Below, in pieces: positions 901-16,549 of a stretch of DNA of 64,000 nt; position 1 is the first letter of the stretch; each line of letters begins with the position of its first letter. Where the stretch lies: IMG/VR virus record IMGVR_UViG_2576861193_000002. The stretch is one strand, 5' to 3'. A program made the position numbers and the translations under genes. The notes under the pieces were generated by a model that saw only the letters and a program-made list of their open reading frames with translations, had not been told where the DNA came from and did no database searches. Source of the stretch: a virus. Lineage: Duplodnaviria; Heunggongvirae; Uroviricota; Caudoviricetes.

Positions 901-956
901 TTCAGGCTGGCGGTGTAATGCACCGCCAACTTGAAATATTTTTTATGAGAAAAATT

Positions 957-1151
957 ATGAGATATGACAATGTTAAACCATGTCCATTTTGTGGTTGTCC
1001 ATCAGTAACGGTGAAAGCCATTTCAGGATATTACCGAGCGAAGTGTAACGGATGCGAATCCCGAACCGGTTATGGTGGAAGTGAAAAAGAAGCACTCGAA
1101 AGATGGAATAAACGAACCACTGGAAATAATAATGGAGGTGTTCATGTATAA
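957..1151 (+). CDS. ralR: Lar/RalR restriction-alleviation protein
   Basis: 64 aa MRYDNVKPCPFCGCPSV..., Cys-rich; internal start of ORF 918..1151. Confidence 0.8.
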   Translation: MRYDNVKPCPFCGCPSVTVKAISGYYRAKCNGCESRTGYGGSEKEALERWNKRTTGNNNGGVHV

Positions 1152-1353
1152 AATTACCGCCACTATTGAAAAGGAAGGTGGCACTCCTACTAACTGGACA
1201 AGATATTCAAAATCTAAACTAACGAAATCAGAATGCGAAAAAATGCTCTCAGGTAAAAAAGAAGCAGGCGTTTCCAGAGAGCAGAAAGTAAAACTGATAA
1301 ATTTTAATTGCGAGAAACTTCAGTCCTCGAGAATTGCATTGTATTCAAATTAA
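1144..1353 (+). CDS. ydaC: Rac small protein YdaC/RcbA
   Basis: 69 aa MYKITATIEKEGG...; internal start of ORF 1072..1353. Confidence 0.7.
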   Translation: MYKITATIEKEGGTPTNWTRYSKSKLTKSECEKMLSGKKEAGVSREQKVKLINFNCEKLQSSRIALYSN

Positions 1354-1431
1354 AACTTCATAGCTGATTATTAATAATCAACATCGGGCGTCAATTTCAG
1401 TCTAACATTGGCGCCTGCCAGAGGTGATGCG

Positions 1432-1647
1432 ATGGCACAAGTAATCTTTAATGAAGAGTGGATGGTTGAATACGGCCTGATGCTTCGCACTGGTCTGGGG
1501 GCCAGACAAATTGAAGCATACCGCCAGAACTGTTGGGTGGAGGGCTTCCACTTCAAACGAGTATCTCCTTTAGGTAAGCCAGACAGCAAACGAGGGATTA
1601 TCTGGTACAACTATCCAAAGATAAATCAGTTTATCAAAGACTCATGA
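1432..1647 (+). CDS. xisR: Rac excisionase XisR
   Basis: 71 aa [15 protein letters not shown]...; directly upstream of intR. Confidence 0.7.
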
Positions 1648-1648
1648 T

Positions 1649-2884
1649 ATGTCTAAATTACCAACAGGTGTCGAGATTAGAGGTAGATACATTCGCATCT
1701 GGTTCATGTTTCGAGGAAAACGATGTCGGGAAACATTAAAAGGCTGGGAGATTACAAACAGTAATATTAAAAAGGCCGGAAATTTAAGAGTGCTGGTAGT
1801 TCATGAAATAAACTCCGGTGAATTTGAGTATTTAAGACGTTTTCCCCAGTCCAGCACTGGGGCAAAAATGGTGACAACGAGAGTCATAAAAACGTTCGGA
1901 GAGCTTTGTGATATCTGGACAAAAATTAAAGAGACAGAGTTAACAACAAACACAATGAAGAAAACGAAATCACAATTAAAAACACTCAGAATAATAATTT
2001 GTGAAAGTACCCCGATATCACATATTCGTTATAGCGATATCTTAAACTACCGGAATGAACTGCTGCATGGAGAAACGCTTTACCTGGATAATCCAAGATC
2101 CAACAAAAAAGGAAGAACCGTGCGCACAGTTGATAACTATATCGCCCTGCTCTGTTCGCTGTTGCGTTTTGCGTATCAGTCGGGATTTATATCAACCAAA
2201 CCATTTGAAGGAGTAAAAAAATTACAGCGAAACAGAATAAAGCCTGATCCGTTATCTAAAACAGAATTCAATGCATTAATGGAAAGTGAAAAAGGACAGA
2301 GCCAGAACTTGTGGAAATTTGCCGTTTACTCAGGACTTCGTCACGGGGAACTGGCAGCTCTGGCGTGGGAGGATGTGGATCTCGAAAAGGGAATAGTGAA
2401 TGTCAGAAGAAACCTGACGATACTTGATATGTTCGGTCCCCCAAAAACAAATGCCGGGATCCGAACAGTAACACTACTGCAGCCTGCTCTTGAAGCACTG
2501 AAGGAGCAATACAAACTGACCGGGCATCATCGCAAAAGCGAAATCACCTTTTATCATCGGGAGTACGGCAGAACCGAAAAGCAAAAACTGCATTTTGTTT
2601 TCATGCCCAGGGTGTGTAACGGAAAACAAAAACCTTATTACTCGGTAAGCAGTTTGGGGGCAAGGTGGAATGCAGCAGTAAAACGTGCTGGTATTCGCCG
2701 CCGTAATCCGTACCATACGCGGCATACTTTTGCCTGCTGGCTGTTGACGGCAGGAGCGAACCCGGCATTTATAGCCAGCCAAATGGGGCATGAAACTGCG
2801 CAGATGGTGTATGAAATTTACGGTATGTGGATTGATGACATGAACGACGAACAGATAGCCATGTTGAATGCGCGGTTATCGTAG
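1649..2884 (+). CDS. intR: Rac prophage tyrosine integrase IntR
   Basis: 411 aa; C-terminal catalytic region (NPYHTRHTFACWLL ... MVYEIY) typical of tyrosine recombinases. Confidence 0.9.
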   Translation: MSKLPTGVEIRGRYIRIWFMFRGKRCRETLKGWEITNSNIKKAGNLRVLVVHEINSGEFEYLRRFPQSSTGAKMVTTRVIKTFGELCDIWTKIKETELTTNTMKKTKSQLKTLRIIICESTPISHIRYSDILNYRNELLHGETLYLDNPRSNKKGRTVRTVDNYIALLCSLLRFAYQSGFISTKPFEGVKKLQRNRIKPDPLSKTEFNALMESEKGQSQNLWKFAVYSGLRHGELAALAWEDVDLEKGIVNVRRNLTILDMFGPPKTNAGIRTVTLLQPALEALKEQYKLTGHHRKSEITFYHREYGRTEKQKLHFVFMPRVCNGKQKPYYSVSSLGARWNAAVKRAGIRRRNPYHTRHTFACWLLTAGANPAFIASQMGHETAQMVYEIYGMWIDDMNDEQIAMLNARLS

Positions 2885-2935
2885 TTGCAAAGTTTGCCCC
2901 CAATTTGCCCCACTTAGTACCAGAGAACTGAAATA

Positions 2936-3871
2936 ATGCAAGAAAATCAACAAATTACAAAGAAAGAACAATACAACCTGAACAAATTACAAAAACGTCT
3001 GCGTCGTAACGTGGGCGAAGCCATTGCTGACTTCAATATGATTGAAGAAGGCGATCGCATCATGGTTTGCCTCTCCGGGGGTAAAGACAGCTATACCATG
3101 CTGGAGATTCTGCGCAATTTGCAGCAAAGCGCGCCAATCAATTTTTCGCTGGTGGCTGTTAACCTCGATCAAAAGCAACCGGGCTTCCCGGAACACGTTC
3201 TGCCCGAGTATCTTGAAAAGCTGGGCGTTGAGTACAAGATTGTTGAAGAGAATACTTACGGTATCGTGAAAGAGAAGATTCCAGAGGGCAAAACCACTTG
3301 CTCACTGTGTTCTCGCCTTCGTCGCGGTATCCTTTATCGTACCGCAACGGAACTGGGGGCGACGAAGATCGCGTTGGGTCACCATCGTGACGATATCCTG
3401 CAAACGTTGTTCTTAAATATGTTCTACGGCGGTAAGATGAAAGGTATGCCTCCGAAACTGATGAGCGATGATGGCAAACATATCGTTATTCGTCCGCTGG
3501 CCTACTGCCGCGAGAAAGATATTCAGCGATTTGCCGATGCAAAAGCGTTCCCGATTATTCCGTGCAACCTGTGCGGTTCACAGCCTAACCTGCAACGTCA
3601 GGTGATTGCTGACATGTTGCGTGACTGGGATAAACGTTATCCAGGGCGTATCGAGACGATGTTCAGCGCGATGCAGAATGTGGTGCCGTCGCATCTGTGC
3701 GATACCAACCTGTTCGATTTCAAAGGCATCACCCACGGTTCTGAAGTGGTTAACGGGGGTGATCTGGCGTTTGATCGCGAAGAGATCCCACTACAACCGG
3801 CGTGCTGGCAGCCAGAAGAAGATGAAAATCAGTTGGATGAGTTACGGCTGAATGTGGTTGAAGTGAAATAA
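2936..3871 (+). CDS. ttcA: tRNA 2-thiocytidine biosynthesis protein TtcA
   Basis: 311 aa; PP-loop SGGKDS motif and CxxC pairs. Confidence 0.92.
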
Positions 3872-3875
3872 CCAG

Positions 3876-3957
3876 GATAGCGCCCGATGCGCAAGCGTAT
3901 CGGGCTACTCTTATGGAGGCCGGATAAGACGCGGCCAGCGTCGCATCCGGCAATCCC
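3876..3957. repeat. REP/BIME-type extragenic palindromes between convergent ttcA and dbpA
   Basis: GCCGGATAAGACGCGGCCAGCGTCGCATCCGGC-type imperfect palindromes. Confidence 0.5.
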
Positions 3958-3999
3958 GAATAAGATGTTTACTCTTGCACCCGGCAATTCAACATTTCA

Positions 4000-5373
4000 T
4001 TATTTTAATAACCGCACCCGGCACGTTTTTCCTTTAATCTTCCCGCCCTGTAACTGTTTCCATGCTTTATGAGCAACAGCCTGACGGACCGCGACATAGA
4101 CATGCGCCGGATGCACGGCGATTTTGCCAATATCTGCGCCATCAAGCCCGATATCTCCTGTCAGTGCACCTAATACATCACCCGGGCGCATTTTGGCTTT
4201 TTTCCCGCCATCGATACACAACGTTGCCATTTCTGCTTCCAGCGTCGCAATGGAACTATTAGCTGGCGGCGTTTGCCAGTTAAGTTTTATCTGCAACATG
4301 TCAGAAATGATATTGGCCCGCTGTGCTTCTTCCGGAGCACAGAAACTGATCGCCAGACCGCTATTTCCTGCACGAGCTGTACGACCGATGCGATGTACAT
4401 GAACTTCAGGGTCCCACGCCAGCTCAAAGTTCACCACCAGCTCAAGCGATTTAATATCCAGACCACGCGCAGCAACATCAGTCGCGACCAGTACACGGGC
4501 GCTACCGTTAGCAAAACGTACCAGGGTCTGATCGCGATCGCGTTGCTCCAAATCGCCGTGTAATGACAATGCACTTTGCCCTACTTCATTCAGCGCGTCG
4601 CAGACAGCCTGGCAATCTTTTTTGGTATTGCAAAACACCACGCAAGAGGATGGCTGATGCAAGCTTAATAACCGTTGCAACAGAGGAATTTTGCCTTTGC
4701 TGGATGTCTCATAAAATTGTTGTTCAATGGGTGGCAAAGCATCTGTTGAGTCAATTTCAATCGCCAAAGGATCGCGTTGCACTCGTCCGCTGATTGCAGC
4801 GATGGCTTCCGGCCAGGTTGCCGAAAACAGAAGCGTCTGTCGAGATGCAGGCGCAAAACGGATGACATCATCAATGGCATCGCTAAATCCCATATCCAGC
4901 ATGCGGTCGGCCTCATCCATCACCAGCGTATTCAACGCATCCAGTGATACCGTGCCTTTTTGCAGGTGATCCAGCAAACGCCCCGGCGTTGCCACGATAA
5001 TATGCGGCGCATGTTGCAACGAATCACGCTGCATACCGAACGGTTGACCACCGCACAACGTCAAAATTTTGGTATTTGGCAGAAAACGCGCCAGCCGACG
5101 CAATTCACCTGCCACCTGATCCGCCAGTTCACGCGTAGGACACAGCACTAAAGCCTGGGTTTGAAATAGCGACGCATCAATTTGCTGTAACAAGCCGAGG
5201 CCAAAAGCCGCCGTTTTGCCGCTGCCGGTTTTCGCCTGCACGCGAACATCTTTTCCGGCAAGGATCGCCGGAAGCGCGGCGGCCTGCACCGGCGTCATGG
5301 TTAAATAACCCAACTCATTAAGGTTCGTGAGTTGGGCGGGAGGCAAAACATTCAGGGTAGAAAAAGCGGTCAC
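4000..5373 (-). CDS. dbpA: ATP-dependent RNA helicase DbpA (DEAD-box)
   Basis: 457 aa; Walker A AKTGSGKT, DEAD box VMDEAD, SAT, HRIGRTAR motifs. Confidence 0.92.
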   Translation of the reverse strand: MTAFSTLNVLPPAQLTNLNELGYLTMTPVQAAALPAILAGKDVRVQAKTGSGKTAAFGLGLLQQIDASLFQTQALVLCPTRELADQVAGELRRLARFLPNTKILTLCGGQPFGMQRDSLQHAPHIIVATPGRLLDHLQKGTVSLDALNTLVMDEADRMLDMGFSDAIDDVIRFAPASRQTLLFSATWPEAIAAISGRVQRDPLAIEIDSTDALPPIEQQFYETSSKGKIPLLQRLLSLHQPSSCVVFCNTKKDCQAVCDALNEVGQSALSLHGDLEQRDRDQTLVRFANGSARVLVATDVAARGLDIKSLELVVNFELAWDPEVHVHRIGRTARAGNSGLAISFCAPEEAQRANIISDMLQIKLNWQTPPANSSIATLEAEMATLCIDGGKKAKMRPGDVLGALTGDIGLDGADIGKIAVHPAHVYVAVRQAVAHKAWKQLQGGKIKGKTCRVRLLK

Positions 5374-5402
5374 AATCTATTCTCGTGGTCATCGACGCAA
5401 AG

Positions 5403-5576
5403 TTAGCAGGCGCGTATCCTCGCAGATCTACGCTCACGATGCGACAATTTAATCGGTTCTTCATCGGGTGGTGGGTCAGGCATGGGTTGCGGGCGAGGGA
5501 TCGGATCGGGCACTGGAACAGGATCGCCAGGAATCGGTTCAGGGACAGGAATTTGCAAATAAATAAGTGTCGTCAT
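5403..5576 (-). CDS. small proline-rich hypothetical protein (57 aa)
   Basis: MTTLIYLQIPVPEPIPGDPVPVPDPIPRPQPMPDPPPDEE...; GAGGG RBS before ATG; below ORF-track size cutoff; coordinates approximate. Confidence 0.3.
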   Translation of the reverse strand: MTTLIYLQIPVPEPIPGDPVPVPDPIPRPQPMPDPPPDEEPIKLSHRERRSARIRAC

Positions 5577-5632
5577 ATTTCCCTCTGGTCATTGGGTGGA
5601 CTCTTAAAGGGTAGACGCTGATAAATAACAGG

Positions 5633-5662
5633 CAAAAAAAAGCCGACTCATCAAAGTCGGCG
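5633..5662 (-). terminator. rho-independent terminator downstream of zntB (possibly bidirectional)
   Basis: GCCGACTcatcaaaGTCGGC hairpin flanked by A-run on plus strand, T-run on minus. Confidence 0.5.
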
Positions 5663-5850
5663 TCGTACGAATCAATTGTGCTATGCAGTAATTCAAAAAA
5701 GGAAGTAAGACAATATGGAGCGCAACGCCCATCGCTTGACGTTGCATTCACCTGCAAGAGAGATATTGCCCTGAATGGGTAGAGAGTTTATTGACTTCGC
5801 TCAAACTTTGCGGCGTTTTTGTATACAGACAGCCGGAAAAATTGCTTTTG

Positions 5851-6855
<1,005 letters not shown>

Positions 6856-7088
6856 TTATTTTGTAGTCTAGCCTTCTGGCCCTGTTACGCAACATCTCAT
6901 CACCCCATTACCCTGAAATGATTAATAAAATTCTGTCTAAATTGAATACAAAAAGCAAAATGCTTTTCCGTATACAAACCGTGTGAAGTGTTAAATAGCG
7001 TCTATCATTATCAGAATTATCTGATCATATGACGTGGCTTTTTTGCGATCGGATAGCAACAAAAATTGATAAAAATAACGGGATCTCA

Positions 7089-7139
7089 ATGATTACGCAC
7101 AACTTCAATACCCTGGACTTACTCACCAGTCCTGTCTGG
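7089..7139 (+). pseudogene. dgcM: 5' fragment of diguanylate cyclase gene dgcM (codons 1-17), separated from rest of gene by prophage
   Basis: ATG then MITHNFNTLDLLTSPVW, frame ends 2 codons into prophage DNA; reading frame resumes at 62966 (VWIVSPFEEQ...). Confidence 0.6.
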
Positions 7140-7140
7140 A
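7132..7140. repeat. left junction repeat (candidate att core) CTGTCTGGA
   Basis: Same 9-mer at 62961-62969; both lie in dgcM reading frame. Confidence 0.5.
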
Positions 7141-7209
7141 ATGGTTAGCACTATTAATAATAATTTATAAAACAGTATGTTATAGTGCTTTTGTTTTTGG
7201 TTTTGGATA

Positions 7210-7288: not shown

Positions 7289-9478
7289 TTATTCTTCGCT
7301 TCCGGTCAACTGCCGGACAAGCTCTTCAAGTTTTGTGATCCGTTCATCCATGACGGCAATGTTAGCTCGTAGGCTGGCATTCTCCCCTTCCAGTTCGGTG
7401 ACGCGGTTATCTGTTTCGTGTGCCACCTGGACAAGTAAGCCAGTCACTGCGGCATAATCAACATTGAGGTAACGCGATTCTTCGCGTAGCTCGTTGCCAT
7501 CAATGGTCGGCCCCTGCAACTCTTTGCCGTAATGAGTAAACGATCCAACAGCCTCCGGTAGCGCCTCCATAACCTCCTGAGCGATAACACCAGCGTAAGG
7601 CAGGCCGTTTTCCTTAAGGGTATAAGTGTACCCGTTCATTTTGCGGATGGCTTCAGTTGCGTTATTTATAACCTGAATGTTGTCTTTAAGGTCGCGATCA
7701 GATGATTGATTTACTGATAAGCAAGTAACGCTTCCAGACGCTTTAATATTTGTCACATCAAGTCTGTCGTTTGCAAAATTATATGAGATTGCTGTGCTTG
7801 TGCTTCCGGCATCATCATAATTGCTTTTATGAATAAACCAGTTTCCGCCATTAGCAATAAGGGTATAAGCTGGCGTGTTAGCCGGGCGATCTGTTTCATC
7901 AAATCTTATTGCAGGGTTAGCACTATTTATTTGCAAAGGTTTTTCAAGCGTTGATTTCAGTATCGCACTATCTACAATTAAATTACCTTCTGAGTTAAGG
8001 TTTAGATATTTTGAATCACCAGTTGAACCATTGTATACAAACCTTATTGTTAATTGACTTTTCCCTTCTGATAAAGTCTGAGCATACATATAAGCTGCAA
8101 GACGCAAATCGTCGTTAGTTGACAATAGTCTTGTGCGGAGGATTCCACTAGATGTGCCTACGTCTGTCGAATCACTATATTTATCAAGAAATAGACTATT
8201 AAGCTGAGGGCTATTATCCCTGCCCAACCCTAGATTAGTTCTGGCATTATCAAGGCTTGTCGCACCAGTGCCGCCTTGAGCAACGGCTAACGGTATCCAT
8301 TTTTTTTGCGTATCGCTGTAACAACCCCACGATGAGGCAGATAAACCAAGTCGCATAGAGTTGTCAGCGTTATATATCCATGTTTCGCTGCCCCACTCAC
8401 TAACCCTTTCGGTTGATACCATTTTTTTCCATGCGCTCCAACCTTGCCCGCCATACGACCTTCTGTAACTAATTTTCATATCGTTAAACAAATAATAGGT
8501 CTGCATGCACCCTTCTGAATCACCTGCGCCAGTTTTTTGCACTAACAATGAACCAGCAATCTGTATGGGGTAATTTAATTCAGGTTTTGCGTTTGCTGAT
8601 AATACTTGATGATAAAATCCTGCTGCGCTTCCTTTTAAGTCATCAAGATTCTGTCTATCGCTAAGGGTAGTTTTTGCATCATGCATAACCATTAGGTTTT
8701 TTCTGGCTTCTGCTGCGTTTCCAGCACCAGTACCGCCATACATAACGCCTAACTTAAGTGCCCCGGCGGTTGAATAAGCACCCCACCCAGCGTTATTAAC
8801 GAAGATGTAATTTTTATTTTCTCCGTCCCGCAACTGAGTTTCTTTTGAGGAACCACCATTTTGAAGCAAGCGATTTACTTCATCCTTGCGTGCGTGGCGT
8901 GTCCAGTTCTGGCCTGATGCTGCGACCCATGTATAAGTATAAAGTGATCGCGTAGACCAACCGACAAAGACGCCAGCATATGAAGGCGACGCATCCCGCT
9001 GACAGATAAATCCACTCAAAAATGATTCGCCAGCCGCTACGGAAGGAAAGCCCTTAGTCGTTTCCTTTATGCGCAAAAAGCCAACGTAAGAAGACGGATC
9101 GCCTGATATATCGACGCAATCTCGCGGCTCTGGACCCAAGCCAATATTGCTGCCATCTATTGCGCTTGATATTTCATCTTCCTTTTCCTGATAAAAACGA
9201 AGTGTTTCAGCTACATCCTGGGCAAGCCCATCAACTGAGATCGAATCAGAAAGCAGAATACTAAATTTTGTTCCGGCAGGGATGGCGGGGTTAGCCGCTG
9301 GCGTTACTGACAGTTCAGTACCGCTTTTAATTTCTGTGATGGTAAAGATCTGCACCGGATTGCCGATTGCAATGAGCGTGCAACCTACACGAATGAGAGA
9401 AAGCGGCGCGGAAAAGTTTGTTCCCGTGCCTGTAACAGTATTGCCATTAATGGCAATTGTTCCAGTTGTGTAAATCAT
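7289..9478 (-). CDS. side tail fibre/tailspike with C-terminal intramolecular chaperone (peptidase S74-like) domain
   Basis: 729 aa; C-terminal ...DLKDNIQVINNATEAIRKMNGYTYTLKENGLPYAGVIAQEVMEALPEAV... then coiled coil, resembling fibre self-cleaving chaperone domains. Confidence 0.75.
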   Translation of the reverse strand: MIYTTGTIAINGNTVTGTGTNFSAPLSLIRVGCTLIAIGNPVQIFTITEIKSGTELSVTPAANPAIPAGTKFSILLSDSISVDGLAQDVAETLRFYQEKEDEISSAIDGSNIGLGPEPRDCVDISGDPSSYVGFLRIKETTKGFPSVAAGESFLSGFICQRDASPSYAGVFVGWSTRSLYTYTWVAASGQNWTRHARKDEVNRLLQNGGSSKETQLRDGENKNYIFVNNAGWGAYSTAGALKLGVMYGGTGAGNAAEARKNLMVMHDAKTTLSDRQNLDDLKGSAAGFYHQVLSANAKPELNYPIQIAGSLLVQKTGAGDSEGCMQTYYLFNDMKISYRRSYGGQGWSAWKKMVSTERVSEWGSETWIYNADNSMRLGLSASSWGCYSDTQKKWIPLAVAQGGTGATSLDNARTNLGLGRDNSPQLNSLFLDKYSDSTDVGTSSGILRTRLLSTNDDLRLAAYMYAQTLSEGKSQLTIRFVYNGSTGDSKYLNLNSEGNLIVDSAILKSTLEKPLQINSANPAIRFDETDRPANTPAYTLIANGGNWFIHKSNYDDAGSTSTAISYNFANDRLDVTNIKASGSVTCLSVNQSSDRDLKDNIQVINNATEAIRKMNGYTYTLKENGLPYAGVIAQEVMEALPEAVGSFTHYGKELQGPTIDGNELREESRYLNVDYAAVTGLLVQVAHETDNRVTELEGENASLRANIAVMDERITKLEELVRQLTGSEE

Positions 9479-9612
9479 CGCAATGACTCCATTTTGTTAA
9501 TTAACGGAATAATTCTACCATTTTGTGATCTGTGTTGCATTTTATGCTTATACAAAATGTATATTATAATAAACAAAGCAACAAATACACACAATCTGAG
9601 TGGGGTGTACTA

Positions 9613-9831
9613 ATGAAAATGGTAACAATTATCGCTGTTGCGGCTATTCTGGTTGGTTGCGCTGACACTAATCGACACAACGGTCATTGTGCAACTAGCG
9701 CATACGGTGTCTGCTATGAAAGATGGGTTGATGGTGTAATGGTTCCTGCCGGGGAAATTTGTCGGGTGTATGATGGCACTGATGGCCATAGTGGCAAGAC
9801 TAGAGATTGCGGAAGTAAGGAGTGGTATTAA
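9613..9831 (+). CDS. small Cys-rich lipoprotein (candidate superinfection-exclusion / receptor-masking protein)
   Basis: Internal Met of ORF 9532..9831: MKMVTIIAVAAILVGC lipobox; 6 Cys in mature part; opposite strand to adjacent tail fibre. Confidence 0.55.
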   Translation: MKMVTIIAVAAILVGCADTNRHNGHCATSAYGVCYERWVDGVMVPAGEICRVYDGTDGHSGKTRDCGSKEWY

Positions 9832-10766
9832 TGGGTGCAGGTATATATATTGGGCTGAATGACGGACGCCCTGCAATGGAAATAACAAGCGGGTTGCGTG
9901 CGTTCTCACACGCTGGAGATTTCAATATTCAAAAGGCCGGGTTTTTGCAAAGTTTTTCCATAAAGGATTTAACTGGCGGAGATAAGTTTTTAATCCCAAA
10001 GGCAGGCGCTTACGCGTTTGAGCTTGACCGGGGCGTTGAAACATATTTTATATCAGGCTTTAGTGCTTCTGGTGGCACGGCAAGGATTTCAATTAGTGGT
10101 GAGAACGCATATTCTGATAGGATCACTAATTTTAGCGGTAGCGTGTTTGAGATAGCAAAGGCGTCTACTGGTGAGGGTATATTAGTTGCAGATAGCACAG
10201 GTTTTGCATCGATAACGACTAACGATACATTGATGTCATGTTTATGGGTTGGAAGTGTTAGCTTTACTGGGTCTTACACTATGCCAGTTGCTGGCGTTCC
10301 TTTCGGTAACTGGAGCAATAGCGGAGTTTCAGTTGAGTTTGACGGAAACAATAAATTGATCTGTACAAACACAAACACCTCTTCCACTGGTGACACATAT
10401 GGATCTGTGGCGATGAATTTGGCTATTTTTAGCAAATCACCGCCATCACCTGGCGACGGAATAACCATCATCAATAAAAATAATCAATGCGTGTTTTCAA
10501 CAAAACAAAGGCCATTGGTTGTTAAGGGATTTATAACGTTATCTAATAGTTATCAGAATATTGGTGACGCATTCTTCCCAATATTGAGATGCGGCTTTAA
10601 TACCAGAGCCATTAAAGCATACAAGGAGCTAAGATACAAAGGCATTATGATGTACAATGGGCAGGTGAAAAGCGGAACAGGATCAAGGATTGTCAGGTAT
10701 GAAATAGGTAACAGGCCGGATTTCTGTATAGGTATGAAGCTACCTTATTTGCCAGCAATTTATTAA
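9831..10766 (+). CDS. hypothetical Gly/Ser/Thr-rich beta protein, translationally coupled to lipoprotein
   Basis: AAGGAG RBS, ATG overlapping upstream stop (TAATG); 311 aa; no recognised motif. Confidence 0.5.
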   Translation: MGAGIYIGLNDGRPAMEITSGLRAFSHAGDFNIQKAGFLQSFSIKDLTGGDKFLIPKAGAYAFELDRGVETYFISGFSASGGTARISISGENAYSDRITNFSGSVFEIAKASTGEGILVADSTGFASITTNDTLMSCLWVGSVSFTGSYTMPVAGVPFGNWSNSGVSVEFDGNNKLICTNTNTSSTGDTYGSVAMNLAIFSKSPPSPGDGITIINKNNQCVFSTKQRPLVVKGFITLSNSYQNIGDAFFPILRCGFNTRAIKAYKELRYKGIMMYNGQVKSGTGSRIVRYEIGNRPDFCIGMKLPYLPAIY

Positions 10767-10806
10767 TAAAATTAGTTGCCCCAACCATTTGGCGGGGCAA
10801 CAGTTA

Positions 10807-13800
10807 TTACCAAACACCAATAATAATTTTACCACCACTAGGAAGATTTACCGTAATGCCGTTATTGTTAATAATTACCCGTCCGTCACTATTGCGTACA
10901 TCGAAATTTTGATTGCCTTTAACAATGACGTTACCCCTTACGGTGACTTCGTTGAATTGCGCCCATCCATCTTTGTTAATCATCCAACCTTTTGAGTCTT
11001 GAACAAATACGGTTGACTGGATTTGCTGCGCTATTTTTGCAGTACCGATAGATCCGTCTTTAATAAACGCTTCTTTAACATACATTGCATCATTGGTGGT
11101 ATAGAAAGGTGATGTGTATGTGCCGTTTGCTGCGGTCATCAACACGAAGCGGTCAACGAGGAAAATACACTGCGATTGAACGTTAGTGCCGCTACCAGTC
11201 AGCCCAAGAGACATACCTGTTGCATACTTCATGCCGTTGTTGTCGGTTGCCAGCTTGATAGAGTACGTCGCATCAACATTACCTTTGAAGTCGGTTAACG
11301 CTTTCGACGTCGTCTGTATCGCTGTTGTGTTCCCGTTAACGGTCACTGTTAGCTGATCGATTTTGCTTGATAATGCCTCGTCAGCCGTCGCCATTGCCTG
11401 CGACCATTCTGTAATATTTGAGTTTACAGAATCGAAAGACGCTGAGATCTGGCCAAATTTTTCCGCGCTTGATGCTTCATGCGTAGAAAGTGCCGTTGAC
11501 ACCTCTGATACCTTCGAATTAATCGTACTGGTAAGCGATGAGTTAAGACTACTGATTGCGTCAGTACGGGCCTTCGTTTCGTCTGCAATAGCCTTATCAA
11601 TACGGGTTACGTTACTTGTCACCTTACTATCAAGCGTGGAAATTGATGCGTTCACTCCGCTGATAGCCTGGGCGCGGGCGCTTGATTCGTCGGCAATAGC
11701 CTGATCCAGCCTGCTAACTTCAGATTCAGTGTTGTTTTCAAGCGTGCTAATACTTGCATTCACTCCACTGATAGCTTCAGTTCTTGCGCTTGTCTCATCT
11801 GCAATGGCTTTATCAAGACGGCTTATTCTTGAATCCGTTTTCTTGTCTAGCGCTGACACTGAGGCATTTACTCCGCTGATAGCCTCGCTGCGTGCGCTGG
11901 TTTCGTCTGCAATTGCCCTATCAAGGCGGTTGACGCTTGCTTCCGTCTTCCTATCAAGATCGGTGATCGATGCGTTTACGGAGCTAATGGCTTCCGCTGT
12001 GGCTTTTTTCTCCTCTGCTATAACATTGTCAATACGGTCAATTTGCGCGTTGGTTTCTTTGCGGCCTTTCTTGTATTGGGCCGTGAGAGTAACCCGCGTG
12101 TTGGTTTGAGCAATAGAGTTGTTGATAAGTGCGATTGAGGCGTTTTGCAGACTTGCTTTAGTCTGATTTATTTCGTCGCTGTTTTTGTCAACGTTATTTT
12201 CAACAGTGCCAAGCTCCGCGCTGATGCCCGATATTGCCTGTGCACGGGCGCTTGATTCATCTGCAATTGCCTGATCAAGACGTTTAACGCTGGCGTTTGT
12301 GCTATTTTCAAGCGTTGTTAAATCAGCTTTAACCTCTGTTATTGCGGCGCTTCTTGCCTGCGTTTCATCTGATATTGCTTTATCAAGACGGGAAACGCTC
12401 GCGTCAGTTTTGCTTTCAAGATTGCTTATTGAGGCGTTAACGTCGCTAATGGCCTGGGTGCGGGCACTGGTTTCATCTGCAACCGCTTGATCCAGTCTGC
12501 TTACTTCTGATTCTGTATTGTTTTCAAGTGTGCTAATACTTGCATTCACGCTACTGATAGCGTCTGTGCGTGCTTTTGTTTCGTCTGCTATCGCTTTATC
12601 AATGCGGTTAATGTTGCTTGTAACTTTGCCGTCAAGCGTGGAAATTGAGGTATTCACGCCGCTGATGGCTTCAGTTCTTGCACTGGTTTCATCTGCAATT
12701 GCCTGATCCAAGCGTTTTACGCTGGCGTCAGTTTTCTTGTCTAGCGTTGAAATACTTGCATTTACGTCGCTGATGGCTTGAGTCCGCGCGCTAGTCTCGT
12801 CAGCGATTGCTTGATCAAGGCGGTTAACGCTTGCGTCAGTTTTCTTATCAAGATTGCTTATTGAAGCGTTTACACCGTTAATAGCTTCAGCGCGGGCGCT
12901 GGCCTCGTCAGCTACTGCGCGCTGCACGTTAGAAATCTGACCTTTAAGGTTGGAGTCCATCGTATTCATTTCTGCTGTGATGGTTTCCAGTGATTCCGCT
13001 GTCGCTTTTTTCTCTTCAGCGATAACGTTGTCAATGCGGTCGATTTCCGCTTTAGTCTCTGTCCTGCCTTTCTTGTACTGAGCGGTAAGAGTTACGCGCG
13101 TGTTTGTCTGTGCAAGTGAGTTATTAATAAGAGCAAGTGACGCGTTTTGCAGGCTTGCTTTTGCTTGCGCCAGTTCGCTGCCAACTTTTTCGCTGGACAC
13201 TTCTAATGAGTCAATTCTTGCCTCATGCTGTCCAATATCATCGGCGTTTTCCTCAACCTTTTTATAAAGATCTTCCGTTTCTTTTTTCAGTGTGTCCGTA
13301 TCAGCTTTTATGGCCCCTGTTTCTGTGATTAGGCCGTCCGTATCAATCCTCAAATCGTCAGTGATGTTTGTCAGGTTGTCCGTGTCAACCCTCAAATCGT
13401 CAGTGATGTTTGTCAGGTTATCAGTTGCAGTTTTGAGGTTGTCGGTAGCAGTTTTAAGGTCATTTGTAGCGCTTTCGATAAGATCAGCGCGGTCGCCAAG
13501 ATCTTTAATGTCGCTAATCATCCCCTTAAACTGTTCTGAATTAATTACGTCTTTTGTGACGTAGTCGCTAATTTCATCGAAGTTTTCAGTTGGTTTGCCT
13601 GATGCCTCAACGAAATCTGACACGCCAAAAGCGTTACGTGTACGAATATAAACGTAATAGGTGTGCCCCGTGTTCATGCCGCCAAAAGTCCACTGATAGC
13701 CGCGCCCGGTAAACTGCGCTGATGTGGTTACTTTTGATGGATCTGTGATCTGGTTTTCACCTGCGAAGTAAAATTCGTATGCTGTATCAGTGGTCAGGGT

Positions 13801-15990
13801 TGTTTTGCTAATCGGATACACTGTTGCCTGGAAAACACCAGGAACCCAATTAACGCCGACCGGGGCCGCTGGTGCACCAATAACCAGGTCCACAATACTT
13901 TCCGCACCCTTCATGCCAGTGTCATTACGCCCGCGAATACCAAGCGTGTAGCTGCCAGTATCAAGGCCATAAAACTCATAGCGGTAATTCGTTGTTTCAT
14001 AAGTTGCCACCACGCGGCCTTCGGCGTTATATACGCGTATTTCAAAGGTCAGGCGATGCGTTGTCGTCTGTGTTTCCCATGTAGCGCGACATTGAACAGT
14101 TTCAGAACCAACATTTAACACCTTCAGGTTTTCAATGTTCGGCACGCGGAAGTGATTAAGCGTGTCGTTGTTTACCTCAAAGATTGCGCCTTCATCGACT
14201 ACAGCCTGTTTATGTGGGTCATGCTGTGCTGCCTCGATGGTGTACACGCTGTTGTTTTCAGTTTCTGCTACGCTGATGATTCGGCACAGGACGGGTTTTG
14301 CTGCGTCAGTTGATACAGCAAAAACAGTTCCGTTACGAATCCACGCGGGGGCGGCTGCAAGGGTGATATTGTTTCCGTTAACTCCGGTGATCTGGTGTTT
14401 TTTAAACTTGCCATCACTATCAAGTAAACTAATGGTATCGCCTGCGGCGATGTATTCCGAATCAACCTTATCTACCGTTATCACCTTGCCATTATTCGCC
14501 ACGATACGACCGCCAAAACGAGCGCCTGCGCGGTTATTGTCGAGTATCTCGATAATATCCCCAGGGGTGAAGTGAATTGCGTCGCGGGCCATTTTAAACG
14601 TGAATTTTGATGGTTCGCGTTTTGCTGTTTCTATCAGCCACTTGCCAGCGCGGTATGCCTGCCCGCGTGAAGTGCAACCGAAAGCCTCTAGCGTGGTTTC
14701 GTTATAACCATCGCGGGCGATCAATTCATCATCTGCCACGTATTCTTTTGATTGCTCCCAACCGTTTTCCGGGTCAGTCCATGACACGATAACTGCGTTG
14801 TAAGATTCTGCACGGGCAATACTTGAACGAGTAAACGCGCCATCAACAACGTTAGCATTCGTGATGGTAGCAATTGGATCTTGCGGTGCATCAATCATCA
14901 CCGTAAGGCGCTGCCCATCCCATAACGCGATACCACGGAACATGCCTGCGATATTGTCCAGTAAGTCGCGGGCGCTCATTTGCTCAGTTATGTAAGCATT
15001 AAGCGTCATGCGAGGTTCAAAGCCGCCGTAACCGTCGTTTACCAACTGGTCGCAGTATTGAGAAAGCGTATATAATGCGCCGTCGTCAACATCAATGTAA
15101 CCAGCATGACGTGCAAGCCCGAAACGTTCATTTTTAACCAGATACCGGAATAGCCACGCAGGGTTATTGGTGTACGCTTTTTTAAATCCACCTAGCCATA
15201 AACCTGAATACGTGCGCGTTTCAGGGTTATAGTTGTCAGGCACATCAACAATCAGTCCGCGCAGATGATAGGTGCGGGTAGGTGTATCAGTATACTGGTC
15301 ATGGTCAATTACAGCACCAGCTACAGCGGTATGAGGGTAAGACAGGTTATCGTCGATTATTTCGCTGTAGCTACTCCACCGCGTATCATTACGAAGAAGA
15401 TCGCTTTTGCTGTCTGCTGTTACGCGACGAACGCGAATATCAAACGGCTTTTCATCCGGCGCTTTGATAATGTGAGCTTCCAGATATTCACCGCTTTGTT
15501 TACCGGGACCAATGTGTATACCTTTAACCGGCGACCACGTAGAAGATGATGACGGTTTAACATCAACCACCAACATAACGGATGTATTATATTGATTGCC
15601 CTCATCATCTGACTGAACAAGAGCATCAACGCCAAGATTTAACCTTACGCGGGTAACGTTTGGATCTGAAACAGTCCTTATTATTGGCGTGTCGTGAGTT
15701 ACCTTTGCGTTGACAATAACGGTTGATTCGATGGCATTAAAACCATTAATCGGCGATTGGTCAGCCGTGCCGTTGCGCCAGGCTATACTAATCCCAGGAA
15801 TTGATGTGTTTCCGTTTGCGTCAGTGATAGGCGTGTCATTAAGCATTACGTTGTTTAATGGCGCATTCTGGTTAACTACTCCAAAAATTGGTCCTTCACT
15901 TAGAATATCTAAAACCCGATAAAATTGTTTATGAAACAAATTATCATTAAGCAAAGTTGGTGTTTTTGCTTTACCGCCGCCACTAGACAT
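10807..15990 (-). CDS. central tail fibre / host specificity protein J-like with ~650-aa tandem-repeat coiled-coil insertion
   Basis: 1727 aa; N-terminal ~850 aa resembles lambda J as recalled (YHLRG..V.NYNP.TR.YSG.W.G); aa ~870-1520 are 29-30 aa repeats (SARTQAISDVNASISTLDKKTDASVNRLDQAIADET). Confidence 0.85.
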   Translation of the reverse strand: MSSGGGKAKTPTLLNDNLFHKQFYRVLDILSEGPIFGVVNQNAPLNNVMLNDTPITDANGNTSIPGISIAWRNGTADQSPINGFNAIESTVIVNAKVTHDTPIIRTVSDPNVTRVRLNLGVDALVQSDDEGNQYNTSVMLVVDVKPSSSSTWSPVKGIHIGPGKQSGEYLEAHIIKAPDEKPFDIRVRRVTADSKSDLLRNDTRWSSYSEIIDDNLSYPHTAVAGAVIDHDQYTDTPTRTYHLRGLIVDVPDNYNPETRTYSGLWLGGFKKAYTNNPAWLFRYLVKNERFGLARHAGYIDVDDGALYTLSQYCDQLVNDGYGGFEPRMTLNAYITEQMSARDLLDNIAGMFRGIALWDGQRLTVMIDAPQDPIATITNANVVDGAFTRSSIARAESYNAVIVSWTDPENGWEQSKEYVADDELIARDGYNETTLEAFGCTSRGQAYRAGKWLIETAKREPSKFTFKMARDAIHFTPGDIIEILDNNRAGARFGGRIVANNGKVITVDKVDSEYIAAGDTISLLDSDGKFKKHQITGVNGNNITLAAAPAWIRNGTVFAVSTDAAKPVLCRIISVAETENNSVYTIEAAQHDPHKQAVVDEGAIFEVNNDTLNHFRVPNIENLKVLNVGSETVQCRATWETQTTTHRLTFEIRVYNAEGRVVATYETTNYRYEFYGLDTGSYTLGIRGRNDTGMKGAESIVDLVIGAPAAPVGVNWVPGVFQATVYPISKTTLTTDTAYEFYFAGENQITDPSKVTTSAQFTGRGYQWTFGGMNTGHTYYVYIRTRNAFGVSDFVEASGKPTENFDEISDYVTKDVINSEQFKGMISDIKDLGDRADLIESATNDLKTATDNLKTATDNLTNITDDLRVDTDNLTNITDDLRIDTDGLITETGAIKADTDTLKKETEDLYKKVEENADDIGQHEARIDSLEVSSEKVGSELAQAKASLQNASLALINNSLAQTNTRVTLTAQYKKGRTETKAEIDRIDNVIAEEKKATAESLETITAEMNTMDSNLKGQISNVQRAVADEASARAEAINGVNASISNLDKKTDASVNRLDQAIADETSARTQAISDVNASISTLDKKTDASVKRLDQAIADETSARTEAISGVNTSISTLDGKVTSNINRIDKAIADETKARTDAISSVNASISTLENNTESEVSRLDQAVADETSARTQAISDVNASISNLESKTDASVSRLDKAISDETQARSAAITEVKADLTTLENSTNASVKRLDQAIADESSARAQAISGISAELGTVENNVDKNSDEINQTKASLQNASIALINNSIAQTNTRVTLTAQYKKGRKETNAQIDRIDNVIAEEKKATAEAISSVNASITDLDRKTEASVNRLDRAIADETSARSEAISGVNASVSALDKKTDSRISRLDKAIADETSARTEAISGVNASISTLENNTESEVSRLDQAIADESSARAQAISGVNASISTLDSKVTSNVTRIDKAIADETKARTDAISSLNSSLTSTINSKVSEVSTALSTHEASSAEKFGQISASFDSVNSNITEWSQAMATADEALSSKIDQLTVTVNGNTTAIQTTSKALTDFKGNVDATYSIKLATDNNGMKYATGMSLGLTGSGTNVQSQCIFLVDRFVLMTAANGTYTSPFYTTNDAMYVKEAFIKDGSIGTAKIAQQIQSTVFVQDSKGWMINKDGWAQFNEVTVRGNVIVKGNQNFDVRNSDGRVIINNNGITVNLPSGGKIIIGVW

Positions 15991-16549
15991 ATAGACCCCC
16001 TGTTTCGTGTAATTTCGTGTATCCTGCGCCAGCTTTATTTAGCTCTTCAATCATGAATGACCGCCACGCGACGGCGGCATTAATAGCCATTTCAAGTCCA
16101 CCGCACGCTATAACGCTAAATGATTTACTAACTCTTTTGTCGTTATCAGCGGTGATACGTGCTCTAATAGATCTCCCTTCTGCGTGCCAACATATCCCAA
16201 ATGGCAATCCGCTCTCCCTTGTCGCGCGACCTATGGTCATATTTCTGGCGTTACCTTTTTTATCTGTTACGCGTATGTTATTGAATTTATTATTAAGCCC
16301 ATTACCATCAATGTGATCGATGATCTCACTGCGTTTTAATTTTCTGCCACTGCATAATTCGTAAACAATCCGGTGAGCATAATAGCGACGGCCCTTCCAT
16401 GTGATTTTCCAGTACTTATTGCCGCTTTTTGCCGCTACTATTTTTCCTGCCGCATCGCCAGTCCTCGCCGTTCTGCTGTTAGCGGTGACTTTCCACCTTA
16501 AACATGAAGGAGAATCTTCATCATAAACAAACAATTCAGACCAGTTCAC
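15983..16549 (-). CDS. HNH homing endonuclease with AP2 DNA-binding domain
   Basis: 188 aa; EIIDHIDGNGLNNKFNN HNH motif; inserted between tail genes I and J. Confidence 0.8.
   Translation of the reverse strand: MNWSELFVYDEDSPSCLRWKVTANSRTARTGDAAGKIVAAKSGNKYWKITWKGRRYYAHRIVYELCSGRKLKRSEIIDHIDGNGLNNKFNNIRVTDKKGNARNMTIGRATRESGLPFGICWHAEGRSIRARITADNDKRVSKSFSVIACGGLEMAINAAVAWRSFMIEELNKAGAGYTKLHETGGLYV

What the first reader, a model, noticed from the sequence alone, without database searches (positions are those of the whole stretch)
9489..10766. Cys-rich lipoprotein and coupled 311-aa protein transcribed divergently next to the tail-fibre gene
A 72-aa lipoprotein (lipobox LVGC, six Cys in the mature part) with its own promoter-like region lies immediately beside, and on the opposite strand to, the receptor-binding fibre gene. 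That arrangement is the one recalled for receptor-masking superinfection-exclusion lipoproteins such as T5 Llp and phi80/N15 Cor. It is translationally coupled (TAATG) to a Gly/Ser/Thr-rich protein of unknown function, suggesting a two-component surface module.
Basis: partly seen in the sequence, partly recalled or inferred. Interest (0 to 1): 0.5.

Follow-up and report, generated by a model that had tools for sequence, protein, structure and literature searches.

The report
Phage LptD receptor-binder plus exclusion lipoprotein
This gene pair in an E. coli prophage is a known phage host-recognition cassette: a tail-tip protein that most likely binds the bacterial LptD channel, plus a small lipoprotein that blocks that receptor from inside so infected cells cannot be re-infected.

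Summary
Both genes are real: a 72-aa lipoprotein (9613-9831) and a 311-aa protein (9831-10766), overlapping by one base (TAATG). They lie between a lateral tail-fibre gene and the J tail-tip gene of an mEp021-like prophage inserted beside zntB in E. coli.

The lipoprotein is 96% identical to Lpp021 (gp81) of phage mEp021, which has been shown to exclude mEp021 and mEp515 when expressed from a plasmid. It belongs to Pfam PF24052 and is 51% identical to Rtp45, whose cryo-EM structure shows it bound to the periplasmic face of LptDE.

The 311-aa protein is not a second host-surface component. It is DUF6453, the dedicated receptor-binding protein of small siphoviruses that target LptD. It is 64% identical over its full length to the Rtp44/AugustePiccard protein, and its only significant solved-structure match is the Oekolampad receptor-binding protein bound to LptDE.

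So the exclusion idea is right, but the "two-component surface module" is wrong.

- **Minor errors:** the mature lipoprotein has five Cys, not six, and the promoter-like region is no better than chance.
- **Open point:** the mEp021 paper reports OmpA dependence and credits J. Homology predicts LptD, which was untestable in Keio strains because lptD is essential.

This is a new member of a known kind, of low to moderate interest.

The parts
9479..9612 (+). 134-bp spacer between the divergent lateral-fibre gene and the cassette. It contains a perfect -10 hexamer TATAAT at 9565-9570 with a weak -35, and the lipoprotein RBS GGGTG at 9603-9607. Bases 9479 to about 9563 are backbone shared with LamB-type mEp phages. 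The exchangeable cassette begins at about 9564.
   Evidence: Sequence. No consensus promoter found. The best candidate is no better than shuffles. Alignment with mEp021 and mEp010 shows the mosaic breakpoint. 132/134 bases are identical to mEp021. RBS as annotated in MH706966.
9613..9831 (+). Superinfection-exclusion lipoprotein of the Rtp45 / Lpp021 family (72 aa). Signal peptide is residues 1-15, lipobox LVGC, lipidated Cys16. Cys26 and Cys34 correspond to the Rtp45 Cys30-Cys38 disulfide. There is an extra Cys50/Cys66 pair.
   Evidence: PF24052, 104 bits against a cut-off of 27. 96% identical to mEp021 gp81. 51% to Rtp45 and 42% to the Oekolampad protein. PDB 9rps_D, E 5.4e-20. dN/dS 0.06.
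9831..10766 (+). Receptor-binding protein of the tail tip (311 aa, DUF6453; Rtp44 / AugustePiccard bas01_0028 / Oekolampad RBP family). Predicted to bind the extracellular face of LptD.
   Evidence: PF20051, 346 bits against a cut-off of 25. 96% identical to mEp021 gp80. 64% full-length to Rtp44 and to bas01_0028. PDB 9rpt_C, E 1.2e-44. AF2 model with pLDDT 80.6 whose sole significant fold hit is 9rpt_C, E 5.9e-15, TM 0.81.
10775..10801 (.). GC-rich hairpin (GTTGCCCC...GGGGCAAC) in the 40-bp gap between the convergent receptor-binding-protein and J genes. Likely a bidirectional terminator; the T-run lies on the minus-strand side.
   Evidence: MFE -17.3 kcal/mol, z -3.4. The equivalent site is annotated as a terminator in mEp021. 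The simple terminator scan missed it.
10807..15990 (-). J-like central tail-tip protein (1727 aa). Its C-terminus (...GITVNLPSGGKIIIGVW) matches the C-termini of the J proteins of Rtp and Oekolampad, which carry a separate LptD-binding protein. Presumed docking site for the 311-aa protein.
   Evidence: Pfam J domains and Phage_Tail_Tip at residues 1557-1691. blastp of the C-terminal ~230-260 aa gives 32-35% identity to Rtp43 and Bas18 J. LamB-type mEp010 J instead carries a 124-aa C-terminal extension.
7289..9478 (-). Lateral tail-fibre gene (729 aa) with a C-terminal intramolecular chaperone domain (Peptidase_S74). It is context rather than part of the cassette. The order fibre / exclusion lipoprotein / receptor-binding protein / J is the same as in Oekolampad.
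   Evidence: Pfam and PHROG hits. Oekolampad gene order. Only the N-terminal 108 aa are shared with mEp021 gp82.

Best explanation
The locus is the host-recognition and self-exclusion cassette of a temperate mEp021-like siphovirus.

The 311-aa DUF6453 protein is a virion protein. It docks non-covalently on the C-terminal tip of J and inserts into the extracellular side of the outer-membrane LPS translocon LptD(E). This gives irreversible adsorption and triggers DNA ejection.

The 72-aa protein encoded just upstream is translationally coupled to it. It is exported by Sec, lipidated at Cys16, and sorted by Lol to the inner leaflet of the outer membrane (Ala at +2). There it binds the periplasmic face of LptDE and pushes a hairpin up the barrel lumen, so that extracellular loop 4 is displaced and the receptor-binding protein can no longer bind. 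Infected or lysogenic cells, and the debris they leave, then stop adsorbing phages that use this receptor.

Status of each step:
- Shown here: family membership of both proteins, gene order, coupling, the signal peptide and lipobox, and purifying selection.
- Shown by others on close or family homologues: exclusion by Lpp021; the Rtp45-LptDE and RBP(Oekolampad)-LptDE structures; LptD dependence of AugustePiccard, Oekolampad, FritzHoffmann and OzMSK.
- Inferred: that this particular allele targets LptD, that the receptor-binding protein docks on J, and when and from which promoter the pair is expressed.
For: Lipoprotein:
- PF24052 at E 3.9e-30.
- 69/72 identical to mEp021 Lpp021, which excludes mEp021 and mEp515 (PMC11893012).
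- Its only PDB hit is Rtp45 in the LptDE complex (9rps_D, E 5.4e-20); mechanism in PMC12685063.
- The Rtp45 disulfide cysteines and the VPAGE hairpin motif are conserved.

311-aa protein:
- DUF6453 at E 2.5e-103.
- 64% identity at 100% coverage to Rtp44 and to AugustePiccard bas01_0028. Resistance to AugustePiccard maps to lptD (PMC8594841).
- Identity to Rtp44 is spread over every 25-aa block (40-80%), not confined to the N-terminal base.
- PDB 9rpt_C, E 1.2e-44. The AF2 model hits only 9rpt_C (E 5.9e-15, TM 0.81).

Architecture:
- Gene order is identical to Oekolampad (fibre | exclusion lipoprotein, receptor-binding protein | J) and to Rtp (1-nt overlap, convergent with J).
- 23 of 24 DUF6453 loci carry the lipoprotein immediately upstream.
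- The J C-terminus resembles that of Rtp and Oekolampad J. The LamB-dependent sister phage mEp010 has a C-terminally extended J, a different lipoprotein and no receptor-binding-protein gene. This is the pattern described for this locus in PMC8594841 and in bioRxiv 10.64898/2026.04.02.716166.
Against: - The only wet-lab receptor data for this allele group point elsewhere. mEp021 and mEp515 plate at about 1e2 PFU/mL on a Keio ompA mutant, and the authors assign recognition to J. LptD was never tested, because lptD is essential.
- Identity to the structurally characterised proteins is moderate: 36% to the Oekolampad receptor-binding protein and 51% to Rtp45.
- The one Oekolampad contact residue named in the paper's main text (Gln299) lies in a loop that is two residues shorter here.
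- The lipoprotein carries an extra Cys pair that is absent from Rtp45.
- No convincing promoter was found, so expression in the lysogen is unproven.
- The 'virion structural protein' label for mEp021 gp80 comes from the GenBank record. I could not find the mass-spectrometry table in the text available to me.
Confidence: 0.8

Rival explanations
1. The architecture is the same, but the cassette has been retargeted. In the mEp021 clade the DUF6453 protein binds OmpA, alone or together with LptD, and the lipoprotein masks OmpA. The family would then not be restricted to LptD.
For: An ompA knockout reduces mEp021 and mEp515 plating to about 1e2 PFU/mL, and both phages carry this cassette. The temperate-clade lipoproteins differ from all virulent-phage ones by an extra Cys pair.
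Against: - The protein is 64% identical over its full length to the AugustePiccard/Rtp protein, with identity spread evenly. Verified LptD binders share as little as 33-39% identity with each other.
- The published mechanisms need a wide barrel lumen: the receptor-binding protein inserts deeply, and the Rtp45 hairpin rises through the lumen. OmpA's 8-stranded barrel has no such lumen (established knowledge).
- mEp021 and mEp515 also share the same 449-aa lateral fibre gp82, so OmpA dependence can equally be assigned to that fibre.
- Dual-receptor siphoviruses with an LptD-binding protein are already known: Bas01 needs NupG plus LptD.
Confidence: 0.12
2. One reading: both proteins are made for the host cell surface and act together as a two-component exclusion or masking module.
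For: The genes are tightly coupled. The PHROG family label for the 311-aa protein is 'membrane protein / moron'.
Against: - The 311-aa protein has no signal peptide and no transmembrane segment.
- A homologue binds LptDE from the outside as the phage's receptor-binding protein.
- mEp021 gp80 is annotated as a virion structural protein.
- The lipoprotein alone is sufficient for exclusion in mEp021.
- The same pair occurs in strictly virulent phages, at the position of the receptor-binding-protein locus.
Confidence: 0.03
3. The lipoprotein excludes at a step after adsorption, by blocking DNA entry as Cor or SieA-type proteins have been proposed to do, rather than by receptor masking.
For: The mEp021 paper only measured plating, not adsorption, and mentions both possibilities.
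Against: The family member Rtp45 is seen bound to the receptor itself, with a steric rationale for blocking the receptor-binding protein. The gene is always coupled to the matching receptor-binding-protein allele.
Confidence: 0.05

Closest known systems
mEp021 gp81 (Lpp021, type-A lipoprotein) and gp80 ('virion structural protein'), phage MH706966
   Same: 95.7% nucleotide identity across the whole locus. Proteins are 96% identical (69/72 and 299/311). Same J length and same prophage family (mEpimmI). Lpp021 has been shown experimentally to exclude mEp021 and mEp515.
   Different: Three substitutions are clustered at lipoprotein residues 42, 43 and 46, and there are twelve in the receptor-binding protein. 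The lateral fibre differs: 729 aa here against 449 aa, with only the first 108 aa shared. The mEp021 paper links the system to OmpA and J and does not discuss gp80 or LptD.
Rtp45 / Rtp44 of phage Rtp, and the AugustePiccard (Bas01) homologues
   Same: Same two families (PF24052 and DUF6453). Same 1-nt overlap and same convergent position after J. The receptor-binding protein has the same length (311 aa) and 64% identity; the lipoprotein is 51% identical, with the disulfide cysteines conserved. The Rtp45-LptDE cryo-EM structure gives the exclusion mechanism.
   Different: Those phages are virulent Drexlerviridae with a J of about 1136 aa. Here the phage is temperate and J is 1727 aa with a long repeat region. 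The lipoprotein here has two further cysteines (C50, C66).
Oekolampad (Bas18) receptor-binding protein and exclusion lipoprotein bas18_0026 (PDB 9rpt, 9rpw, 9rqi)
   Same: Identical four-gene layout: lateral fibre (-), exclusion lipoprotein (+), receptor-binding protein (+), J (-). Same fold (TM 0.81).
   Different: Only 36% and 42% identity. There is a 2-nt gap rather than an overlap. Several loops differ in length.
T5 Llp with pb5 (FhuA)
   Same: Same logic: a dedicated receptor-binding protein at the tail tip, plus a small periplasm-facing lipoprotein that binds the same outer-membrane receptor and prevents binding. The two genes are adjacent (PMC12685063 introduction).
   Different: No sequence or fold relationship was detected. 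The receptor is different. Llp acts by long-range allostery, whereas Rtp45 physically displaces a loop. In T5 the two genes are divergent rather than co-transcribed (own knowledge).
Cor of phi80 / N15 / T1 / mEp167
   Same: A small exclusion lipoprotein encoded beside the tail-tip genes.
   Different: The only similarity is in the signal peptide (phrog_1119, E 0.011, residues 1-31). Cor acts on FhuA-dependent phages.

Membership tests
Rtp45-type superinfection-exclusion lipoprotein (Pfam PF24052 Phage_lipoprotein) | Profile match above the curated threshold over the whole protein | tested here: met
   104.1 bits against a cut-off of 27; residues 1-71 align to model positions 5-80 of 80. phmmer to PDB 9rps_D gives E 5.4e-20.
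Rtp45-type superinfection-exclusion lipoprotein (Pfam PF24052 Phage_lipoprotein) | Type II signal peptide with a lipobox, and a +2 residue compatible with outer-membrane sorting | tested here: met
   MKMVTIIAVAAILVG|CAD: lipobox LVGC, Ala at +2, hydrophobic core with Kyte-Doolittle 3.0. This is sequence inspection only; no dedicated predictor was available.
Rtp45-type superinfection-exclusion lipoprotein (Pfam PF24052 Phage_lipoprotein) | Conserved disulfide pair (Rtp45 Cys30-Cys38) and hairpin motif | tested here: met
   Cys26 and Cys34 align with Rtp45 Cys30 and Cys38. G41, V44, P45, G47, G55, G58, S68, E70 and W71 are invariant across four family members.
Rtp45-type superinfection-exclusion lipoprotein (Pfam PF24052 Phage_lipoprotein) | Encoded immediately upstream of, and coupled to, the DUF6453 receptor-binding-protein gene next to J | tested here: met
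   1-nt overlap here. The same holds in Rtp and in 23 of 24 loci surveyed.
Rtp45-type superinfection-exclusion lipoprotein (Pfam PF24052 Phage_lipoprotein) | Confers exclusion of the cognate phage; binds the periplasmic face of LptDE | not testable with these tools
   Exclusion is reported for the 96%-identical Lpp021 (PMC11893012). LptDE binding has been shown only for Rtp45 (PMC12685063).
LptD-targeting receptor-binding protein of small siphoviruses (DUF6453, PF20051) | Profile match above threshold over the full length | tested here: met
   345.9 bits against a cut-off of 25; residues 4-291 align to model positions 1-290 of 291.
LptD-targeting receptor-binding protein of small siphoviruses (DUF6453, PF20051) | [quoted passage not shown] | tested here: met
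   64% identity and 100% coverage to AugustePiccard bas01_0028. 64% to Rtp44 and 36% to the Oekolampad protein.
LptD-targeting receptor-binding protein of small siphoviruses (DUF6453, PF20051) | Fold of the Oekolampad receptor-binding protein (double beta-sandwich) | tested here: met
   The AF2 model (pLDDT 80.6, pTM 0.81) is all-beta. Foldseek against the PDB gives 9rpt_C at E 5.9e-15, probability 1.00, TM 0.81; the next hit has E 0.056.
LptD-targeting receptor-binding protein of small siphoviruses (DUF6453, PF20051) | Located in the variable locus directly downstream of gpJ, with a J that ends in the short docking-type C-terminus rather than a receptor-binding extension | tested here: met
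   40 bp from the J stop, convergent. The J C-terminus aligns with Rtp43 and Bas18 J to the last residue. LamB-type mEp010 J carries 124 extra residues.
LptD-targeting receptor-binding protein of small siphoviruses (DUF6453, PF20051) | Infection depends on LptD | not testable with these tools
   No data exist for this clade. The published ompA phenotype of mEp021 and mEp515 neither tests nor excludes it.
T5 Llp family | Sequence or structural homology to Llp | tested here: not met
   The only Pfam hit at E<=0.1 is PF24052. The only PDB chain at E<=10 is Rtp45.
Cor (phi80/N15/T1) family | Homology of the mature protein to Cor | tested here: not met
   phrog_1119 at E 0.011, covering residues 1-31 only, which is the signal peptide and lipobox.

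The most novel reading that the evidence does not exclude
The OmpA dependence published for mEp021 and mEp515 might be a property of this cassette. That is, a DUF6453 receptor-binding protein and an Rtp45-like lipoprotein with an extra disulfide would have been retargeted from LptD to OmpA, or would require both.

This would be the first receptor switch seen within a protein family so far tied to LptD 'without exception'. It would also be the first phage lipoprotein known to mask OmpA.

A milder variant is that lysogens constitutively wedge a lipoprotein into the essential LptDE translocon, with consequences for outer-membrane permeability.
Probability: 0.12. Interest if true: 0.6.

Novelty: new member of a known kind. 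Interest (0 to 1): 0.27.

Why it matters
The cassette type is well described, so the main value is correct annotation. The 311-aa 'DUF6453 / membrane protein / hypothetical protein' should be read as the phage's terminal receptor-binding protein, and the small ORF as its cognate exclusion lipoprotein. That small ORF is mis-started at 95 aa in the source assembly and left uncalled in a related prophage.

Two modest points go beyond that.

First, the LptD cassette has so far been discussed for virulent small siphoviruses. Here it sits in a temperate, gut-prevalent phage group. It is rare there, found in 1 of 5,426 complete E. coli genomes.

Second, it gives a concrete, cheap test that could revise the published receptor assignment (OmpA via J) for mEp021-type phages. 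LptD may be the terminal receptor and OmpA a primary or lateral-fibre receptor. LptD is essential and is an antibiotic and phage-steering target, so a lysogen-borne protein that remodels it is of some applied interest.

Tried and rejected
- **Promoter:** the consensus scan found nothing in the spacer. My relaxed scan found only TTTATG-18-TATAAT, no better than 57% of shuffles. I therefore do not claim a promoter.
- **Terminator:** the simple scan missed the hairpin because its loop is too long. Folding supports it.
- **Other libraries:** NCBIfam gave only noise (TraV at E 0.064; a flagellar rod protein at E 0.069), and PADLOC gave nothing. The GenBank note 'putative FlgL' for mEp021 gp80 has no support.
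- **Mass-spectrometry evidence:** I searched the mEp021 paper's supplements for evidence that gp80 is in virions and found nothing in the files held. Virion location therefore rests on the GenBank label and on homology.
- **Prophage distribution:** the scan of one genome per species returned a single locus, a 46.7-kb contig in a Nitratidesulfovibrio assembly that looks like a coliphage genome. It was uninformative.
- **Assigning OmpA dependence:** I compared mEp021 with mEp515 to see whether OmpA tracks with the fibre or with the cassette. They share both, so there is no discrimination.
- **Contact residues:** mapping LptD-contact residues was not possible, because only Gln299 of the Oekolampad protein is named in the text and no coordinates were available.
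- **Lipoprotein structure:** not attempted, because the authors of the Rtp45 structure report that AlphaFold models of it, and of its complex, are wrong.
Full report
**What is in the sequence.** The + strand between 9479 and 10806 carries two ORFs.
- The first runs from ATG 9613 to TAA 9829-9831 and encodes 72 aa: MKMVTIIAVAAILVGCADTNRHNGHCATSAYGVCYERWVDGVMVPAGEICRVYDGTDGHSGKTRDCGSKEWY.
- The second starts at ATG 9831, sharing one base with that stop codon (TAATG), and ends at 10766 (311 aa).
- Shine-Dalgarno-like sequences precede both: GGGTG at 9603-9607 and AGGAG at 9818-9822.
- On one side, 134 bp away and divergent, is a 729-aa tail-fibre gene (7289-9478, minus strand) with a Peptidase_S74 chaperone domain.
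- On the other side, 40 bp away and convergent, is a 1727-aa J-type tail-tip gene (10807-15990, minus strand).
- A GC-rich hairpin at 10775-10801 (-17.3 kcal/mol, z -3.4) sits between the convergent genes.

- The lipobox LVGC and the signal peptide are as described.
- The mature lipoprotein has five cysteines counting the lipidated Cys16, so four free ones, not six.
- The protein is 29.9% Gly+Ser+Thr.
- The promoter claim is not supported statistically. The consensus scan finds nothing in the spacer. A perfect TATAAT at 9565-9570 is paired with a 3/6 -35 hexamer, which 57% of shuffles match or beat.
- Both ORFs are clearly real genes. Against their mEp021 alleles, dN/dS is 0.06 and 0.13 at dS 0.31 and 0.15.

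**Where the window comes from.**
- Bases 1-7140 are E. coli chromosome: the Rac region, ttcA, dbpA and zntB, at 99.8-100% identity to many genomes.
- From about 7200 onward the window is a prophage. The tail-tip and fibre region compared with phage mEp021 (MH706966) is about 95% identical: 95.7% nucleotide identity over 9400-10900, and the J proteins are 94.8% identical. mEp021 is the archetype of the temperate 'mEpimmI' coliphages.
- The exact protein is recorded in the draft assembly GCA_000511525.1.

**The lipoprotein.**
- It matches Pfam PF24052 (Phage_lipoprotein) at 104 bits against a threshold of 27.
- It is 69/72 identical to mEp021 gp81. Negrete-Mendez et al. (PMC11893012) cloned gp81 as 'Lpp021' and showed that expressing it from a plasmid prevents plating of mEp021 and mEp515.
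- Its only match among all PDB chains is Rtp45 (9rps_D, E 5.4e-20). It is 51% identical to Rtp45 and 42% to the equivalent Oekolampad protein.
- The cysteines that form the Rtp45 Cys30-Cys38 disulfide are conserved (Cys26 and Cys34 here), as is the VPAGE hairpin motif.
- Dunbar et al. (PMC12685063) solved Rtp45 bound to LptDE. It sits on the periplasmic face between LptE and LptM and sends a hairpin up the barrel lumen. This displaces extracellular loop 4 by up to 20 Å, which blocks the phage's receptor-binding protein.
- Ala at +2 fits sorting to the outer membrane.
- There is no homology to T5 Llp or to Cor. The only Cor signal is E 0.011 over the signal peptide.

**The 311-aa protein.**
- It is DUF6453 (PF20051) at 346 bits against a threshold of 25, and 299/311 identical to mEp021 gp80.
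- It has no signal peptide and no hydrophobic segment.
- It is 64% identical, over the full length and at the same length, to Rtp44 and to AugustePiccard bas01_0028. That identity is spread through every 25-residue block.
- An AlphaFold2 model (pLDDT 80.6, pTM 0.81, all-beta) finds only 9rpt_C in the PDB (E 5.9e-15, TM 0.81). The next hit is at E 0.056.
- LptD dependence has been shown experimentally for family members that share only 33-39% identity with one another: AugustePiccard, Oekolampad, FritzHoffmann and OzMSK.

**Architecture.**
- The layout matches the 'bona fide RBP locus downstream of gpJ' described by Maffei et al. (PMC8594841) and confirmed at scale in bioRxiv 10.64898/2026.04.02.716166.
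- Oekolampad has exactly the same four-gene order: lateral fibre (-), exclusion lipoprotein (+), receptor-binding protein (+), J (-).
- Rtp has rtp45 and rtp44 overlapping by one base and convergent with J.
- In 23 of 24 loci that encode a DUF6453 protein, an Rtp45-like lipoprotein ORF lies directly upstream, with a 1-nt overlap in 17 and a 2-nt gap in 6.
- The J protein here ends ...GITVNLPSGGKIIIGVW. Rtp43 ends ...GITVNLPNGGRVVVGTF and Bas18 J ends ...GVNVPLPGGGRVKVGTW.
- The LamB-dependent sister phage mEp010 has a J that is 77-81% identical up to residue 1704 and then carries a 124-aa extension. It has an unrelated lipoprotein and no separate receptor-binding-protein gene.
- The mosaic junction with mEp010 on the upstream side falls at about 9563, right at the -10-like hexamer.

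**Most likely mechanism.**
- The 311-aa protein is assembled on the tip of J and binds LptD, giving irreversible adsorption.
- The co-translated lipoprotein is lipidated, sorted to the outer membrane, and jams LptDE from the periplasmic side. The cell and its debris then no longer adsorb phages carrying this receptor-binding protein.
- Coupling guarantees that whenever the 'key' is made, the 'lock' is disabled.
- Family membership, layout and export signals are shown here. Exclusion, and the structural mechanism, are shown by others on homologues. LptD specificity of this allele, docking on J, and the timing and promoter of expression are inferred.

**The unresolved conflict.**
- The mEp021 paper reports that mEp021 and mEp515 need OmpA, with residual plating of about 1e2 PFU/mL on a Keio ompA strain. 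It attributes recognition to J and does not discuss gp80.
- lptD is essential and absent from the Keio set, so it was never tested.
- mEp021 and mEp515 also share an identical 449-aa lateral fibre, gp82. The window prophage shares only the first 108 residues of that fibre.
- OmpA could therefore be the lateral-fibre or primary receptor, and LptD the terminal one. This would parallel Bas01, which needs both NupG and LptD.
- I put about 0.8 on LptD being the target of this cassette, and about 0.12 on a genuine retargeting to OmpA.

**Distribution.**
- The cassette is rare in E. coli chromosomes. Only one of 5,426 complete genomes carries it, at 95.5% identity, while 14 others share only the conserved first ~85 bp of the spacer.
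- Related alleles at 80-93% identity exist in other E. coli assemblies.
- One of these (L029) is a different prophage with a 1144-aa J. Its lipoprotein ORF is present, with the same extra Cys pair, but was not called by the annotators.

**Verdict.**
- The exclusion interpretation is right, and has already been shown experimentally on a 96%-identical homologue.
- The 'two-component surface module' is wrong: the partner is the phage's receptor-binding protein.
- The locus is a new, temperate-phage member of the known LptD receptor-binding and exclusion cassette. Interest is low to moderate, and lies mainly in the testable disagreement with the published OmpA/J assignment.

Noticed in passing
window 9532-9831; L028 3714-4001; L029 6780-7001: The lipoprotein gene is inconsistently annotated. 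In the source assembly it is called as 95 aa from ATG 9544, which would bury the signal peptide behind a 23-residue extension. In the related prophage L029 it is not called at all. Homologues and the RBS support ATG 9613 (72 aa).
   Followed up: partly
window 9758-9760 and 9806-9808 (Cys50, Cys66); L029 6780-7001: Lipoproteins of the temperate clade (window, mEp021, L029) carry two extra cysteines (GEICRVYDG ... RDCGSKEW). All 20 virulent-phage homologues have Asp/Val and Tyr/His at those positions. This suggests a second disulfide specific to this clade.
   Followed up: partly
window 9736-9750 (lipoprotein residues 42, 43, 46): All three amino-acid differences from mEp021 Lpp021 (V42A, M43K, A46S) cluster next to the conserved VPAGE hairpin motif. 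In Rtp45 the hairpin enters the LptD lumen.
   Followed up: no
window 9479-9570 compared with L004 (mEp010): The mosaic junction between the conserved mEpimmI backbone and the exchangeable cassette lies at about 9563, exactly at the -10-like hexamer. Fourteen other E. coli genomes share only the first ~85 bp of the spacer.
   Followed up: partly
window 7289-9478: The lateral fibre is a three-way mosaic. The N-terminal 108 aa are shared with mEp021 gp82 (92%). The C-terminal 153 aa, including the S74 chaperone, are shared with mEp010_118 (86%). The middle part is only distantly related to either.
   Followed up: partly
window 10807-15990, especially 11756-13470: J is unusually long (1727 aa) because of a coiled-coil-like region built from degenerate 108-nt (36-aa) repeats plus 42- and 21-nt repeats. 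Virulent phages with the same cassette have J proteins of about 1140 aa, and so does prophage L029.
   Followed up: partly
window 15983-16549: A 188-aa ORF overlapping the start of J corresponds to the 'putative HNH endonuclease' inserted between the tail assembly gene I and J in mEp021. Rtp also has an HNH gene inside its tail module.
   Followed up: no
window 1-7200: The prophage is inserted just downstream of zntB, next to the Rac remnant (intR, recT, ttcA) and dbpA. Homology to prophage-free genomes stops at about 7140.
   Followed up: partly
L005 (NZ_VSMK01000220.1, 46,669 bp): The only hit among species-representative genomes is a 46.7-kb contig in a Nitratidesulfovibrio liaohensis assembly. 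It carries a Drexlerviridae-type lipoprotein and DUF6453 cassette identical to IMG/VR coliphage loci, so it is probably a contaminating coliphage genome.
   Followed up: no
L001 1980-2915 (mEp021 gp80): The GenBank note 'putative flagellar hook-associated protein FlgL' and the PHROG label 'membrane protein / moron' for this family have no support in Pfam, NCBIfam, PDB sequence or fold searches.
   Followed up: yes
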